Both the position numbers and the translations under genes were made by a program. Below are positions 56 to 8,028 of a DNA stretch of 64,000 bases, piece after piece (position 1 is the stretch's first letter; each line of letters opens with the position of its first letter). A model generated the notes under the pieces. That model saw only the letters and a list, made by a program, of their open reading frames with translations. It did no database searches and was not told where the DNA came from. This DNA comes from Escherichia phage Bf23: the sequence record OR083247.1; one strand, written 5' to 3'.

Positions 56-64
56 AAAATAAGT

Positions 65-186
65 CATTCTAGGCAGGATTCGAACCTGCTATCACTTGTG
101 CGGACTTACGAGAACCATTCTTTCACTCGAATCGAACGAGCTTCTGCCCTAGCCAAGCTGGTTTCCCCATCAACCACGCTAGAATG
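65..186 (-). ncRNA. tRNA-like element, non-canonical (about 121 nt, no encoded CCA)
   Basis: T-arm GCAGG/TTCGAAT/CCTGC at 73-89; perfect 7-bp acceptor-like pairing between 66-72 and 179-185; D-arm-like TGGT..ACCA; no canonical anticodon arm found. Confidence 0.3.
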
Positions 187-952: not shown

Positions 953-1054
953 ACTTATTTCCTCAGTTATTAATGAAAATGGTATCTGTGGCTGAATTCG
1001 ATGTCAGCAATGATAGCTGGTTGGCTACCGGTTTACTTAACTCTACACAGAATT

Positions 1055-2323: not shown

Positions 2324-2394
2324 TGGCAGGGGTAAAGGTATTCGAAACCTTTTCATGGGTTTTGTAGGCCCATTTGCAACCTATGCGTACCCCA
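2324..2394 (-). tRNA. tRNA-like gene, anticodon unassigned (short, possibly degenerate)
   Basis: CCA encoded, T-arm AAGGT/TTCGAAT/ACCTT, 6-bp acceptor GGGGTA/TACCCC; middle region only 35 nt and no canonical 7-nt anticodon loop resolved. Confidence 0.35.
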
Positions 2395-3526: not shown

Positions 3527-4210
3527 TCATCTATTTTTCTTAATACTTTTAGGATCTTTCCCTGTTAGGGACTTATACCTTTTCCTTAATCCAGTATCAG
3601 ACAATCCTAGTTCTTTGGAGGCACGAATCCAGGAATATTTAGATACCCAGTACTCTATTTGCTCCACAGTAATATCTGGATTTATAGTTATCTCTTTAGG
3701 AGTACATGATTTACAGTGTGTTGCTCTTGAGCTAATTTCGCAGTGACAAATAGCACACGTATTTACAGTCCTTTCTGTATACCTGCCAATATTTTTGCCT
3801 GCATGAGTAGGTGTTAGTGCATGGCAATTTGGGCATAGGAGGGCTAAGTTATCCCATTCATTATTATAGTGATTTCCATCCTTATGTTCAAGTTCTAAAG
3901 GAATTGGTTTATCTAACCAACTTTCTAAGCCACAACTCTCACATTTATGTGGTTTTAGCCCCTCGTTAAGAATTTTATTCTTTAGTTTATAGGAAGAAAT
4001 AGGGCTGCCGTTATATAAATACTCTGTTGCAGACTTATATTTATTATCATACTGCCTATTCGCAGGAATAACTACTATTCCTAGTTTTCCTAAATATGCT
4101 TCCAAAGTGTTCGAGGAGCAGGATAGCATTCTTGCTATCTCTGCTTTAGATTTTCCCTGAGCTATCCACTGAGCTATTTCTTCCTTTCTATCTAGTATAT
4201 CAGTTCTCAT
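3527..4210 (-). CDS. HNH homing endonuclease (227 aa) with N-terminal HTH
   Basis: HNH core ELEHKDGNHYNNEWDNLALLCPNCHA plus additional Cys clusters; free-standing gene beside the tRNA cluster. Confidence 0.75.
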   Translation of the reverse strand: MRTDILDRKEEIAQWIAQGKSKAEIARMLSCSSNTLEAYLGKLGIVVIPANRQYDNKYKSATEYLYNGSPISSYKLKNKILNEGLKPHKCESCGLESWLDKPIPLELEHKDGNHYNNEWDNLALLCPNCHALTPTHAGKNIGRYTERTVNTCAICHCEISSRATHCKSCTPKEITINPDITVEQIEYWVSKYSWIRASKELGLSDTGLRKRYKSLTGKDPKSIKKNR

Positions 4211-4233
4211 AGTTTATGACTTTATAATTAAGT

Positions 4234-4272
4234 TGGTGGCTCCCCGAGGATTCGAACCTACATCTTCCACCA
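4234..4272 (-). ncRNA. tRNA-like minihelix (T-arm-like hairpin with encoded CCA)
   Basis: TGG, then stem TGGTGG/CCACCA enclosing a GGATTCGAACC T-loop motif; no partner acceptor strand or anticodon arm found; lies in the ORF-free 4211-4568 region. Confidence 0.3.
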
Positions 4273-4531
4273 GTTACGGCTTGATAATACCAATTATACT
4301 AGGACGGCAGTGTTACTACATAAGTGATTTCCACACCCCACTATTTATAAATTAGAGAAGAGTTTAGGGGAGAGGTTTCAGACGCCCCATTTTATACGTT
4401 CTAGCCACTAACCGGGATTGCCGCCCCCTGTGTACTAGTTTTACAACTAACCCACCGACTCTATTCAGTGCACTCCGGTTGGGATTCTGCACTCAGCGTA
4501 ATCGGCTCGCTGTTCCCTAATTTATGAATAT

Positions 4532-4560
4532 ATTATACAGAATTTATAAGCATTTAGCAA
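4532..4560 (-). promoter_or_regulatory. early promoter (-35 TTGCTA, 17-nt spacer, -10 TATAAT)
   Basis: Consensus hexamers on the minus strand inside an AT-rich block. Confidence 0.6.
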
Positions 4561-4568
4561 ATGAATTT

Positions 4569-5003
4569 TTAGAAAAATTCACTAGCGATCAAAGCAGTTG
4601 TTTTACCGTCATAACGTCCAGGAAATTCTGCCTTAATAGTTTTCATTAATAGAGCTTTGGTAATACCTGGGTTTAATTTAACCAGTTCTGCAAAATACTC
4701 ACGAATTTCAGTTTCAGTCAGTTGACTTGGCTGATACTCTTGCAGCATGGAATAAAGCAGTTGCTCATAGTCCACATCAGTAGGAACTTTCGTACCAACT
4801 TTAATGGCGCGCTGTTTTGCATTTTCTAGAGCCTTAATCTGAGCTTTCAGATAGGCTACAAACTCGATTCGAGTAACAATGTCTTTATCAATACGTTGCA
4901 GGTCGCCAATCATGGTCTGAAGATTAAGTGCCCGCTCTTTATCACCGTGAGTACGTGCTAGACTAAGCAGTCCACGAAGGGTCATTAGGATATTTTCACC
5001 CAT
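4569..5003 (-). CDS. hypothetical protein (144 aa)
   Basis: ORF track. Confidence 0.5.
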   Translation of the reverse strand: MGENILMTLRGLLSLARTHGDKERALNLQTMIGDLQRIDKDIVTRIEFVAYLKAQIKALENAKQRAIKVGTKVPTDVDYEQLLYSMLQEYQPSQLTETEIREYFAELVKLNPGITKALLMKTIKAEFPGRYDGKTTALIASEFF

Positions 5004-5169
5004 TATTTCATCCCCAATGCTTGGTTAAAAGATTGTTCTGTCATAACTGCTGAGACTTTGGCGAAATCAAACTTTTTAGGGTTCGTAGTGATCTCAGCAA
5101 CGTTGGAAGTTTTAACAGTTTTCGTAGTACGAATACCGCGAGTGTTAACACCAATGACGATCAAGTTCT

Positions 5170-5859
5170 TCATAAACTACCCCCTTTCTGTACTATTGTG
5201 GCCCCCTCTTTCAAGAGGAATTCTTCTGCCTCTTCGGGGGAAATATTAAAGTATTCAGTAGATCCAGCAAATCCACTATAACCACAATTATGACTTTTAA
5301 AATACATATGTGCCTTCTTCTCTAAAGCAAGGGTTTCTGATTTAGAAGAGCTACCATATGTATAGTGGCCATAATACTTAGCTGTGGGATCCCCGGATGC
5401 AGTAATCAAATCCCTTAACCTACGAGCAGGAGAATTAGTAATTCCTATTTTTGTACCTAATGAACTAGTTATTATATAAAGTATCCCACCATCGCTCCAT
5501 ATATTGGAGCACTCAGGGCATCTATTACCCATATTTTTTATGGCACTAAAAGTGGTAATCCATACATGCCCCTTACTACAAGTAAGTTGTAGCTTAGAGT
5601 TATTATTTATATATTTGGTAATGGTGTAATATCCTAAACTACGCAAATATTCAGATACTTGTTCTTGAGTGTACCTAACATTTCCATAGCAGTAGGGACA
5701 ACCTCTTCCGTTCCTAATATTATTTAGGGTAGCATTAAAAACATGTCCATAGGTGCAACAGAACTGCATTTTAGTCCTAGTATTAGTATACTTATCATTA
5801 GTGAATAAGCCTCTACTAACTAGGTAACTCTCTACTTCTTCTTGTGTTAATTTTTTCAT
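5170..5859 (-). CDS. T5orf172 / GIY-YIG-like domain protein with N-terminal tandem zinc-ribbon repeats (229 aa)
   Basis: Two repeats of C..GH..(N20)..CP(Y/E)C followed by GGILYIIT..KIGITNSPARRLRDL. Confidence 0.55.
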   Translation of the reverse strand: MKKLTQEEVESYLVSRGLFTNDKYTNTRTKMQFCCTYGHVFNATLNNIRNGRGCPYCYGNVRYTQEQVSEYLRSLGYYTITKYINNNSKLQLTCSKGHVWITTFSAIKNMGNRCPECSNIWSDGGILYIITSSLGTKIGITNSPARRLRDLITASGDPTAKYYGHYTYGSSSKSETLALEKKAHMYFKSHNCGYSGFAGSTEYFNISPEEAEEFLLKEGATIVQKGGSL

Positions 5860-5870
5860 TTAATAAATTT

Positions 5871-6338
5871 TTAAGTTTTAGTGACAACAGGTTTATAAAA
5901 CGTATGTCCCTTAATCTTAGTTGTTTTCTTAAACTTCTTTGTCCAGTAAGGTTTATCTTTACCACTATGGAAGTATAAAGCTCCATGTGTAGGATCTTGT
6001 GGTAAATCAACGTAGTATATCACTCTAGCTAAATTCTTGGCGGTTTGCCAAGCCTCATCGGTTTTATCAACTTTTGGCCTCTTAGATACCCAAGAGAACT
6101 GGTTAGACTGATATACTACTTTACAGTAGGAATCTGGAAATTTGCCGGAGTTTACACGGTTTTTAGTAACATGTGCAATCGCCGTCATTCCCTTTATGCC
6201 CTCACCACGACTTTCGAAATAGATATTTTTAGCAATGCAATCTATTTCTTTTGCATCGTGCGATGCCTGACTACTAAAGCTGAAGGTAAGGGCAGCTACT
6301 AAAAGCAAAGCTGCCTTCATTCGTTTTACTCCTGCCAA
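5871..6338 (-). CDS. secreted SleB/CwlJ-like cell-wall hydrolase (155 aa)
   Basis: N-terminal signal peptide (hydrophobic LLLVAALTFSFSSQA), then IYFESRGEG..G..AIAHVTKNR resembling the Hydrolase_2 core. Confidence 0.5.
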   Translation of the reverse strand: MAGVKRMKAALLLVAALTFSFSSQASHDAKEIDCIAKNIYFESRGEGIKGMTAIAHVTKNRVNSGKFPDSYCKVVYQSNQFSWVSKRPKVDKTDEAWQTAKNLARVIYYVDLPQDPTHGALYFHSGKDKPYWTKKFKKTTKIKGHTFYKPVVTKT

Positions 6339-6643
6339 TCGTATTCAATACGATTAGGGTTTTCTTTGTACCCCAAGTCAAGCAAATCATTACGCATAGT
6401 TTGCTTAGCTACGGGATTCGAGGTTACTAGTACCACTTTCTTTGGTCTCTGCCCAAATTCTAAGAGTAAACGAAGAATTTGATAACCTTCCATACCATCT
6501 ACAGCCAAATCGTTATCGAAATAAACAAAATGGCCAGTGGTATCAGTCTTATTCAGAAACTCAACAGCGGCTTCTGGGGTTCGAATGATAATGTCCATTC
6601 CGTGAAGATTACGCACATCATCAATCAAAATGTGAAAAGTCAT
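6326..6643 (-). CDS. CheY-like receiver (REC) domain-like protein (105 aa)
   Basis: HILIDDV .. FDNDL..DGMEGYQILRLL .. VVLVTSN pattern resembles receiver-domain acidic pocket, phosphoacceptor and T/S positions. Confidence 0.4.
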   Translation of the reverse strand: MTFHILIDDVRNLHGMDIIIRTPEAAVEFLNKTDTTGHFVYFDNDLAVDGMEGYQILRLLLEFGQRPKKVVLVTSNPVAKQTMRNDLLDLGYKENPNRIEYDWQE

Positions 6644-7959: not shown

Positions 7960-7999
7960 ATTTGTTTTCCTTTTATTGTTTTCTCAAATTTATGAATAT

Positions 8000-8028
8000 A
8001 TTATACAGAATTTTGGAGCCGGAAGCAA
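8000..8028 (-). promoter_or_regulatory. early promoter (-35 TTGCTT, 17-nt spacer, -10 TATAAT)
   Basis: Consensus hexamers on the minus strand. Confidence 0.6.

What the first reader, a model, noticed from the sequence alone, without database searches (positions are those of the whole stretch)
4211..4568. ORF-free 360-bp segment behind an early promoter containing a tRNA-like minihelix with CCA
Between the HNH endonuclease gene and ORF 4569-5003 there is no ORF of 60 aa or more on either strand, yet a consensus promoter (4532-4560, minus) reads into it. At 4234-4272 a hairpin carries a tRNA T-loop motif and an encoded CCA. The segment is GC-richer and more structured than typical intergenic DNA here, consistent with one or more small stable RNAs.
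Basis: seen in the sequence. Interest (0 to 1): 0.5.

Follow-up and report, generated by a model that had tools for sequence, protein, structure and literature searches.

The report
Truncated phage RNAX gene, fusion scar
The ORF-free segment is the first third of an already annotated T5-family stable RNA gene (RNAX), and its "tRNA-like minihelix with CCA" is the scar of a 4.3-kb deletion that fused RNAX's internal tRNA-like element to the tail of a real tRNA-Ile gene, so the finding is largely explained and ordinary.

Summary
There is no ORF of 60 aa or more, there is a 10/12 sigma-70 promoter, and there is a hairpin with a T-loop and an encoded CCA.

The window is a BF23-type T5-like phage. 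The promoter is the annotated early promoter P16-17. Window 4518-4247 (minus strand) is 100% identical to nt 1-272 of the 784-nt BF23 gene rnaX ("stable RNA with unknown functions"). Window 4261-4234 is 100% identical to the last 28 nt of tRNA-Ile2(CAU), which sits just upstream of the HNH gene hegA.

The two matches overlap in a shared 15-nt T-arm sequence, GTAGGTTCGAATCCT. The 4,277 bp that separate these two sites in the older BF23 record are missing: the rest of RNAX, tRNA-Arg, five ORFs including the anti-retron Rad homologue, tRNA-Ser3 and most of tRNA-Ile2. A ~4-kb deletion at this place is already published for the complete BF23 genome.

Both parent elements fold as cloverleaves. The chimera does not, and it gives no Rfam tRNA hit. 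The minihelix is no better than shuffles (z -0.63).

In relatives, RNAX's tRNA-like element and a 13-bp helix at the 5' end of the RNA show compensatory changes. RNAX is therefore probably a real structured RNA, but here it is a dispensable remnant.

The parts
4506..4580 (-). Early promoter P16-17. The -35 hexamer TTGCTA is at 4560-4555 and the -10 hexamer TATAAT at 4537-4532. By spacing, the transcription start is predicted near 4525.
   Evidence: The promoter scan gives 10/12 matches. These 75 nt are 100% identical to the feature 'promoter P16-17' of BF23 record AJ604530. The same feature is annotated in T5 and phage 5.
4247..4518 (-). Remnant of the rnaX gene, nt 1-272 of the 784-nt BF23 RNAX ('stable RNA with unknown functions').
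   Evidence: 100% identity over 272 nt to AJ604530 rnaX. No other part of rnaX occurs anywhere in the 64-kb window.
4513..4525 (-). P1 5' strand, AUAAAUUAGGGAA, at the predicted 5' end of the transcript.
   Evidence: It pairs with 4347-4359 in both the MFE and the centroid fold. The helix is kept in 13 distinct variants: 88.5% of cells are paired and 3 pairs change on both sides. The enclosed interior varies from 6 to 199 nt.
4347..4359 (-). P1 3' strand, UUCUCUAAUUUAU.
4360..4512 (-). Optional interior module of the RNAX 5' domain. It holds the P2 hairpin (4494-4512), the variable P3 hairpin (4467-4493), a GUAA-tetraloop hairpin (4435-4450) and further hairpins. T5 and AKFV33-type phages lack this module.
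   Evidence: Alignments. The P3 slot holds three unrelated sequences (27, 39-41 and 42 nt) that each fold with their ends paired. No conserved ORF is present.
4309..4346 (-). Conserved linker block, AAAUAGUGGGGUGUGGAAAUCACUUAUGUAGUAACACU, immediately upstream of the tRNA-like element.
   Evidence: It is nearly invariant across Tequintavirus, Epseptimavirus and Sugarlandvirus.
4234..4308 (-). Chimeric tRNA-like element. The 5' acceptor strand, D-arm, degenerate anticodon region and 5' T-stem come from RNAX. The 3' T-stem, acceptor 3' strand GGGAGCC, discriminator A and encoded CCA come from tRNA-Ile2(CAU).
   Evidence: It does not fold as a cloverleaf: MFE -14.2 kcal/mol, z +1.25. It gives no Rfam tRNA hit at E<=10.
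4247..4261 (-). Crossover zone. These 15 nt, GTAGGTTCGAATCCT, are shared by the RNAX tRNA-like element and tRNA-Ile2, and mark the junction of the 4,277-bp deletion.
   Evidence: The two BLAST segments overlap here. The 15-mer occurs only at positions 328 and 4605 of the BF23 tRNA-region locus. Feature mapping agrees.
4234..4272 (-).
   Evidence: Fold: -11.6 kcal/mol, z -0.63. One arm comes from each parent.
3527..4210 (-). hegA, the HNH endonuclease F-TflIV. After the deletion it lies directly downstream of the RNAX remnant.
   Evidence: 99.85% identity to BF23 hegA. Pfam gives GerE/HTH hits and a weak HNH_3 hit. Annotation.
4569..5003 (-). Upstream neighbour, a 144-aa ORF (T5.081 / ORF076 homologue). 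Its 3' end overlaps the P16-17 promoter feature.
   Evidence: Pfam gives only a sub-threshold YqeY match.

Best explanation
The segment is promoter P16-17 plus the first 272 nt of the T5-family stable-RNA gene rnaX. It was truncated by a 4,277-bp deletion whose crossover lies in a 15-nt sequence, GTAGGTTCGAATCCT. That sequence is shared by the T-arm of RNAX's embedded tRNA-like element and the T-arm of tRNA-Ile2(CAU), the tRNA just upstream of the HNH gene hegA.

The deletion removed RNAX nt 273-784, tRNA-Arg(UCU), ORFs trn1.1 to trn2.1 (including the TOPRIM/Rad anti-retron homologue), tRNA-Ser3 and tRNA-Ile2 nt 1-50. It left a hybrid tRNA-like sequence that ends in tRNA-Ile2's GGGAGCC-A-CCA.

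The identities, the breakpoints, the loss of the cloverleaf and the conserved P1 helix and tRNA-like structure in relatives are shown by tool results. The following points are inferred:
- Host RNA polymerase starts at about 4525.
- The transcript begins with a 13-bp helix at its 5' end (P1) that encloses a 153-nt hairpin module.
- The transcript now runs through the defective hybrid into hegA, so the remnant serves mainly as a structured 5' leader and scar rather than as an independent tRNA-like RNA.
- The hybrid is probably a poor substrate for tRNA end-processing enzymes.
- The deletion arose by recombination between the two tRNA-related repeats, possibly stimulated by the adjacent nicking endonuclease.
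For: 1. Window 4586-4247 is 100% identical to BF23 AJ604530 locus positions 3-342. Window 4269-2400 is 99.7% identical to positions 4595-6466. The shared 15-mer occurs only at positions 328 and 4605.
2. Feature mapping gives rnaX nt 1-272 at 4518-4247, tRNA-Ile2 nt 51-78 at 4261-4234 and hegA at 4210-3527. tRNA-Arg, trn1.1, trn2.1 and tRNA-Ser3 match nowhere in the window.
3. rnaX is annotated as 'stable RNA with unknown functions' behind promoter P16-17 in T5, phage 5 and BF23.
4. None of 50,697 phage records spans the junction. Query positions 1-257 match RNAX and 240-601 match tRNA-Ile2 plus hegA.
5. The intact BF23 tRNA-like element scores 39.6 bits against Rfam tRNA, whose gathering score is 29. 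The window chimera scores nothing at E<=10.
6. Both parents fold as cloverleaves, at -21.9 (z -2.26) and -25.5 (z -2.08) kcal/mol. The chimera does not, at -14.2 (z +1.25).
7. PMC10644984 reports that the complete BF23 genome has a ~4-kb deletion relative to T5. It removes ORF071-075, including Rad, lies next to HegA, and leaves no tRNA-Arg.
8. The T5 st0 deletion removes the whole region, so it is dispensable.
9. Among the phage's tRNAs, the tRNA-like element is most similar to tRNA-Ile2.
Against: - No transcript data were available, so the start site, read-through into hegA and processing of the remnant are all inferred.
- The annotated RNAX 5' end (4518) lies 7 nt downstream of the start predicted from promoter spacing (4525). 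If 4518 is the true start, P1 would shrink to 6 bp.
- The origin of the window could not be checked directly, because OR083247 is not in the searchable collection.
- The published paper states that its assembly aligns perfectly with NC_042564, which contains the 4.3 kb missing here.
- The P1-closed 5' module is intact and could still act on its own.
Confidence: 0.88

Rival explanations
1. The 5' domain that survives (the P1 helix enclosing the 153-nt hairpin module, 4347-4525) is an autonomous, functional small structured RNA. It is still made from the strong early promoter and is released by cleavage upstream of the hybrid tRNA-like element.
For: - P1 is kept in 13 distinct variants and shows compensatory changes. 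It includes a matched 2-bp expansion in TrudiGerster, and it tolerates interiors of 6-199 nt.
- The P3 slot holds unrelated sequences that all fold as hairpins.
- P1 appears in both the MFE and the centroid fold.
- No conserved ORF is present.
Against: - T5 and AKFV33-type phages lack the whole interior module, so it is optional.
- The folding z-score is only -1.44.
- Rfam gives no family match.
- The T5 st0 deletion removes the region without loss of viability.
- The natural downstream processing signal, the tRNA-like cloverleaf, is broken here.
Confidence: 0.25
2. Positions 4234-4272 encode a genuine tRNA-like minihelix with a functional encoded CCA, for example a substrate for RNase P or the CCA-adding enzyme, or a primer-like or tag-like small RNA.
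For: The hairpin contains a canonical GGUUCGAAUCC T-loop and ends in ACCA. The MFE of the whole RNA also draws it.
Against: - The two arms come from two different genes joined by a deletion.
- No relative carries this combination.
- The CCA is paired inside the stem rather than single-stranded.
- The z-score is -0.63.
- When the 75-nt hybrid is folded alone, the hairpin is not formed.
- There is no Rfam or ARAGORN hit.
Confidence: 0.05
3. The junction is an assembly artefact. Reads were mis-joined at the 15-nt repeat, and the real genome still carries the 4.3-kb interval.
For: The junction falls exactly in a repeat. The older BF23 record contains the interval. The BF23 genome paper says its assembly aligns perfectly with that record.
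Against: - A 15-nt repeat is far shorter than sequencing reads.
- The same paper explicitly describes a ~4-kb deletion here and the absence of tRNA-Arg.
- None of the deleted genes occurs elsewhere in the 64-kb window.
- Deletions in this region are classical for T5, as in st0.
Confidence: 0.03
4. The segment encodes a small protein, the 42-aa GTG-initiated ORF at 4492-4364 on the minus strand.
For: The ORF exists in BF23-type and phage 5-type sequences. Some automated annotations place 'hypothetical protein' features here.
Against: - The start is lost in HdH2-type phages.
- The sequence is replaced in Epseptimavirus.
- The ORF is absent from T5 and AKFV33-type phages.
- Indels between variants follow hairpin boundaries rather than codons.
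Confidence: 0.02

Closest known systems
rnaX (RNAX) of phages T5, BF23 and Salmonella phage 5 (GenBank AY543070, AJ604530, AJ604531)
   Same: It has the same promoter (P16-17) and the same position after the YqeY-like ORF. It is 100% identical to BF23 rnaX over nt 1-272.
   Different: Only the first 35% of the gene is present. The 3' 512 nt and the tRNA-Arg that normally ends the unit are deleted, and the embedded tRNA-like element is now a hybrid.
T5/BF23 tRNA-Ile2(CAU), the tRNA immediately upstream of hegA
   Same: The last 28 nt, including the 3' T-stem, acceptor 3' strand, discriminator and encoded CCA, are 100% identical. The spacing to the hegA start codon is the same.
   Different: The first 50 nt (acceptor 5' strand, D-arm, CAU anticodon arm) are gone. 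The RNAX-derived 5' acceptor strand pairs at only 5 of 7 positions with the Ile2 3' strand, as read from the sequence. No cloverleaf forms.
Deletions of the T5 dispensable tRNA region, such as T5 st0 (AY692264) and the ~4-kb BF23 deletion of PMC10644984
   Same: It lies inside the same dispensable early region, with its junction at a short direct repeat. It matches the published BF23 description: ORF071-075 lost, HegA adjacent, no tRNA-Arg.
   Different: The end points differ from st0. Here the repeat is a 15-nt tRNA T-arm sequence shared by a tRNA gene and a tRNA-like element. The sections of the paper I read did not describe this detail.
Other T5 tRNA-like stable RNAs (RNA2, RNA3) and, from general knowledge, the phage T4 stable RNAs C and D in its tRNA cluster
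   Same: They are non-coding RNAs of unknown function interspersed with phage tRNA genes, and some have tRNA-like folds. RNA2 and RNA3 are present in this window.
   Different: RNAX is much longer (650-1,130 nt across relatives) and modular. There is no sequence similarity to RNA2 or RNA3. The comparison with T4 rests on memory and was not tested.
Large phage-associated structured RNAs found next to tRNA genes (GOLLD, ROOL) and tRNA-mimicking ncRNAs (tmRNA, YrlA)
   Same: Intact RNAX is a long non-coding RNA in a phage. It lies adjacent to tRNA genes and embeds a tRNA-like domain under structural selection.
   Different: No Rfam model of any of these families matches intact BF23 RNAX or the window at E<=10. 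ARAGORN finds no tmRNA. The resemblance is one of context only.

Membership tests
T5-family RNAX (rnaX) | Sequence homology to annotated rnaX, starting just downstream of promoter P16-17 | tested here: met
   100% identity to BF23 rnaX nt 1-272 and to the promoter feature. Identity is 96-98% to many Tequintavirus genomes.
T5-family RNAX (rnaX) | A full-length unit that runs from P16-17 to the 5' end of tRNA-Arg(UCU) | tested here: not met
   rnaX nt 273-784 and tRNA-Arg are absent from the whole window. Relatives have 655-1,134 nt from the -10 hexamer to tRNA-Arg.
T5-family RNAX (rnaX) | Accumulates as a stable RNA in infected cells | not testable with these tools
   Only the GenBank note 'stable RNA with unknown functions' is available. 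No paper on RNAX was found in the library.
tRNA (Rfam RF00005 / ARAGORN) | Cloverleaf with paired acceptor, D, anticodon and T arms that scores above the family threshold | tested here: not met
   There is no hit at 4211-4568 at E<=10 and ARAGORN finds none. The MFE of the 75-nt hybrid is not a cloverleaf. The intact BF23 element scores 39.6 bits, but with its anticodon arm skipped.
tRNA minihelix (acceptor stem stacked on the T-arm, with a free 3' NCCA) | A single-stranded 3' NCCA following a 7-bp acceptor stem stacked on a 5-bp T-stem | tested here: not met
   In the predicted hairpin the CCACCA is itself the 3' strand of the closing stem, and the T-stem has 3+2 pairs with a bulge. The stability is no better than shuffles (z -0.63).
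tmRNA | A split tRNA-like domain plus a tag reading frame, detectable by ARAGORN or the Rfam tmRNA models | tested here: not met
   ARAGORN reports no tmRNA in the window or in relatives. No Rfam tmRNA-clan hit was found.
GOLLD / ROOL large phage RNAs | A match to the Rfam covariance models | tested here: not met
   No such hit appears at E<=10 on intact BF23 RNAX, nor at E<=0.1 on five other relatives.
Repeat-mediated deletion of the T5 dispensable region | Colinear flanks, an interval present in close relatives but absent here, and a junction inside a short direct repeat | tested here: met
   The flanks are 100% and 99.7% identical to BF23. 4,277 bp are missing, and a 15-nt repeat lies at both end points. 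Close relatives span 14.5-16.6 kb for the 12-kb query.

The most novel reading that the evidence does not exclude
Intact RNAX may be an unrecognised class of long, modular, structured phage RNA. It is conserved across Demerecviridae, and it has a helix at its 5' end and an embedded tRNA mimic. In that mimic the acceptor, D and T arms are kept by compensatory changes, while the anticodon arm is degenerate or replaced.

RNAX sits in the same dispensable island as the anti-retron Rad and the defence-evading tRNAs. It could therefore act as a decoy or sponge for host tRNA-targeting defences or tRNA-processing enzymes. In that reading, the BF23 stock in this window is a natural partial knockout that keeps only the 5' module.
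Probability: 0.15. Interest if true: 0.6.

Novelty: already known. Interest (0 to 1): 0.27.

Why it matters
For genome annotation, the hairpin with a T-loop and CCA should not be called a tRNA, a tRNA-like RNA or a new small RNA. It is the junction of a deletion between a tRNA gene and a tRNA-like element.

The junction shows concretely how the tRNA and anti-defence region of T5-like phages is reshuffled: by recombination at the nearly universal T-arm sequence, next to a nicking HNH endonuclease.

It also shows that this BF23 lineage lost 4.3 kb that an older BF23 sequence still had. The lost DNA includes three tRNAs and the Rad anti-retron homologue. That matters for anyone using BF23 in defence-system assays.

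The by-product result may matter more. RNAX has been annotated for about 20 years as a stable RNA of unknown function, and it shows covariation-supported structure. It is therefore a reasonable target for functional work.

Tried and rejected
- **tmRNA or permuted tmRNA.** I suspected this first because of the T-arm, the ...GCCACCA end and the ~300-nt length. I rejected it because ARAGORN and Rfam find nothing and the CCA end belongs to tRNA-Ile2.
- **tRNA with a large intron.** Rejected, because the upstream sequence is RNAX and no matching 5' acceptor strand exists.
- **Known Rfam family for the 5' domain.** Only chance-level hits appeared, Hrs13 on the wrong strand and ZFAT-AS1.
- **Small protein.** No conserved ORF is present.
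- **Literature on RNAX.** The library has no paper with 'RNAX' and T5. Two broader searches gave nothing relevant.
- **Direct check of the presumed source genome OR083247.** It is not in the collection. The paper's supplements are not held.
- **RNAalifold on the 5' module**. It gave a weak consensus of -18.1 kcal/mol, partly because the alignment was cut before the P1 3' strand and the variable hairpins do not align. It proposed a GGGA/UCCC pairing that competes with P1. I treat this as unresolved.
- **Extra TATAAT at 4293-4298**, inside the D-arm. It has no -35 partner and was not flagged by the scan.

Full report
**The observation**

On the minus strand, window 4211-4568 lies between an HNH endonuclease gene (3527-4210) and a 144-aa ORF (4569-5003). 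It contains no ORF longer than 42 aa. A TTGCTA-17-TATAAT promoter (10/12 matches) sits at 4560-4532.

The statistical claims do not hold:
- The hairpin has z = -0.63, and 44 of 200 shuffles fold at least as well.
- The whole 299-nt RNA has z = +0.81.
- The segment is 0.413 GC against 0.390 for the window, and 27% of equally long windows are at least as GC-rich.
- ARAGORN finds six tRNAs downstream of the segment but nothing in it.
- Rfam finds nothing credible, even when only 401 nt are searched at E<=10.

**Identity of the locus**

The region is conserved in about 450-550 T5-like phage genomes. In phage T5 (AY543070), Salmonella phage 5 (AJ604531) and BF23 (AJ604530), the depositors annotated the following in order:
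- a promoter 'P16-17' directly after the homologue of ORF 4569-5003;
- a misc_RNA 'rnaX / RNAX, stable RNA with unknown functions', 719-785 nt long;
- tRNA-Arg(UCU), which ends the unit.

Mapping the BF23 features onto the window gives:
- promoter P16-17 at 4580-4506 (100%);
- rnaX nt 1-272 of 784 at 4518-4247 (100%);
- tRNA-Ile2 nt 51-78 at 4261-4234 (100%);
- hegA (F-TflIV) at 4210-3527 (99.85%);
- no match anywhere in the 64 kb for the rest of rnaX, tRNA-Arg, ORF trn1.1, ORF trn2.1 or tRNA-Ser3.

**The junction**

A BLAST of the window against the BF23 tRNA region gives two colinear blocks. Window 4586-4247 matches BF23 locus positions 3-342 at 100%. Window 4269-2400 matches positions 4595-6466 at 99.7%.

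The sequence GTAGGTTCGAATCCT occurs in BF23 only at positions 328 and 4605. The first is the T-arm of the tRNA-like element inside RNAX. The second is the T-arm of tRNA-Ile2. The window has a single copy, at 4261-4247. The window therefore carries a 4,277-bp deletion with its crossover in this 15-nt repeat.

None of the 50,697 phage records spans the junction. One half of the query matches RNAX and the other half matches tRNA-Ile2 plus hegA. The best long matches all span 14.5-16.6 kb for a 12-kb query.

The published complete BF23 genome fits this architecture. [quoted passage not shown] The deletion is flanked by HegA, and the genome lacks tRNA-Arg (PMC10644984). That record (OR083247) is not in the searchable collection, so the origin of the window is inferred, not shown.

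The deleted interval lies entirely inside the region removed by the classical T5 st0 deletion. It is therefore dispensable for growth in the laboratory.

**What the 'minihelix' is**

Many genome annotations call a pseudo-tRNA, 'tRNA-OTHER' or 'tRNA-Ser' inside RNAX at the position homologous to window 4308-4237.

The intact BF23 element (GCCGUCC ... GUAGG UUCGAAU CCUAC GGACGGU A) scores 39.6 bits against Rfam tRNA, whose gathering score is 29, with the anticodon arm skipped. It folds as a cloverleaf at -21.9 kcal/mol, z -2.26. tRNA-Ile2 also folds as a cloverleaf, at -25.5 kcal/mol, z -2.08.

The window's hybrid takes its first 48-62 nt from RNAX and its last 13-27 nt from tRNA-Ile2. Its acceptor strands, GCCGUCC and GGGAGCC, pair at only 5 of 7 positions, as read from the sequence. 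It does not fold as a cloverleaf (-14.2 kcal/mol, z +1.25), and it gives no tRNA hit.

The CCACCA arm is the acceptor end, discriminator and encoded CCA of tRNA-Ile2. The hairpin is therefore an accident of the fusion, and its CCA is paired rather than free.

Among all the phage's tRNAs, the RNAX element is most similar to tRNA-Ile2: 56 of 72 positions are identical, with the best alignment score. This explains why these two sites recombined.

**Is RNAX a structured RNA?**

*The tRNA-like element.* I compared 15 distinct versions from Tequintavirus, Epseptimavirus and Sugarlandvirus:
- The acceptor, D and T helices are 90.4% paired.
- Five pairs change on both sides. Examples are 5-68 U-A / A-U, 6-67 C-G / U-A, T-stem U-A / C-G, and D-stem UA / GC.
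- None of 500 shuffles reaches the observed covariation score.
- Versions with the pairing partner slid by 1-3 columns pair at only 27-49%.

The anticodon region is invariant but unpaired in Markadamsvirinae. In Sugarland it carries a 20-nt inserted hairpin. In Sds2-type phages the whole element is replaced by another hairpin.

*The P1 helix.* The predicted first 13 nt of the transcript, AUAAAUUAGGGAA (4525-4513), pair with UUCUCUAAUUUAU (4359-4347). P1 appears in both the MFE and the centroid fold. It is kept in 13 distinct variants: 88.5% of cells are paired and three pairs change on both sides. TrudiGerster has a matched 2-bp expansion.

The enclosed interior varies widely:
- 6-15 nt in T5 and AKFV33-type phages;
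- 153 nt in BF23 and this window;
- 168-199 nt in other phages.

*The interior.* The slot after the invariant CAGCG...CGCUG hairpin holds three unrelated sequences that each fold with their ends paired. The last hairpin changes GAGG/CCUC to GUGG/CCAC in Sugarland. No ORF is conserved.

Comparative evidence therefore supports RNA-level structure, although single-sequence energies do not.

**Most likely mechanism in this genome**

Shown by tool results:
- the identities of all the pieces;
- the breakpoints of the deletion;
- the loss of the cloverleaf;
- the conserved structure in relatives.

Inferred:
- Transcription from P16-17 starts near 4525.
- It produces the P1-closed 5' module and the linker.
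- It then reads through the defective hybrid into hegA and the downstream early genes.
- The promoters P15a and P15b, which normally precede tRNA-Ser3, tRNA-Ile2 and hegA, have been deleted.
- The remnant is thus a structured leader and a scar. Its tRNA-type processing is probably impaired.

The deletion probably arose by recombination between the two tRNA-related repeats. The authors of the BF23 genome suggested that the flanking nucleases were responsible. The 15-nt repeat offers a simpler, or complementary, explanation.

One caveat remains. The annotated RNAX 5' end (4518) lies 7 nt downstream of the start predicted from promoter spacing.

**Comparison with known systems, and novelty**

The element is a truncated member of the annotated rnaX family. 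It is not a tRNA, tmRNA, GOLLD, ROOL or any other Rfam family. The RNA gene, the promoter and the ~4-kb deletion are all already on record.

New here are:
- the exact junction;
- the recognition that the CCA hairpin is a chimera;
- the covariation support for RNAX's tRNA mimic and for P1.

I rate the finding as already known and of low to moderate interest. The residual interest lies in intact RNAX, which is a long-annotated stable RNA of unknown function. It lies next to anti-defence genes and carries a selectively maintained tRNA mimic.

Noticed in passing
window 2324-2394 (minus strand): This stretch is 100% identical to the 'tRNA-Trp(CCA)' annotated in BF23 and T5 by the original depositors. 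ARAGORN does not call it, and neither does Rfam tRNA at E<=1. The BF23 genome paper accordingly lists Trp as missing.
   Followed up: partly
window 62-186 and 980-1052 (minus strand): These are homologues of the T5/BF23 misc_RNAs RNA2 (100%) and RNA3 (98.6%), both annotated as 'tRNA-like RNA with unknown functions'. The window start also cuts tRNA-Gly2(GCC) at 1-55.
   Followed up: no
window 7987-8013: A 27-nt stretch of the P16-17 promoter feature recurs here at 100% identity. It probably belongs to another early promoter of the same type. T5 record AY587007 annotates 'repeat c' copies near such promoters.
   Followed up: no
window 4360-4512; L006 (T5), L024, L012, L013: RNAX is strongly modular. 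T5 and AKFV33-type phages lack the 153-nt interior of P1. Sugarland and TrudiGerster carry an extra insert of roughly 190-290 nt between P1 and the linker block.
   Followed up: partly
L012 1360-1450 (Sugarland); L010 about 1160-1210 (Sds2): Sugarland's tRNA-like element has a 20-nt GGGGA-GCUA-UCCCC hairpin inserted in the anticodon loop of an otherwise good cloverleaf. Sds2-type Epseptimavirus replaces the whole element with an unrelated ~47-nt hairpin between the same flanks.
   Followed up: no
window 4569-5003 (minus strand): This 144-aa ORF is annotated in different genomes as 'tRNA amidotransferase', 'recombination-related exonuclease' or hypothetical. Pfam gives only a sub-threshold YqeY match, 20.5 bits against a cut-off of 27. 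The nuclease label looks unsupported.
   Followed up: partly
window 4247-4261 versus AJ604530/NC_042564: The BF23 genome paper states that its assembly aligns perfectly with NC_042564. That older BF23 record contains the 4,277 bp absent here. If the window is that genome, the deletion arose, or was selected, in a laboratory stock after the earlier sequencing.
   Followed up: partly
L008 4555-4632 (BF23 tRNA-Ile2) and window 4234-4261: The genuine tRNA-Ile2(CAU) has an irregular T-stem, CG(U)AGG/CCUCG, with a bulged U. This gives only three contiguous pairs next to the T-loop (fold).
   Followed up: no
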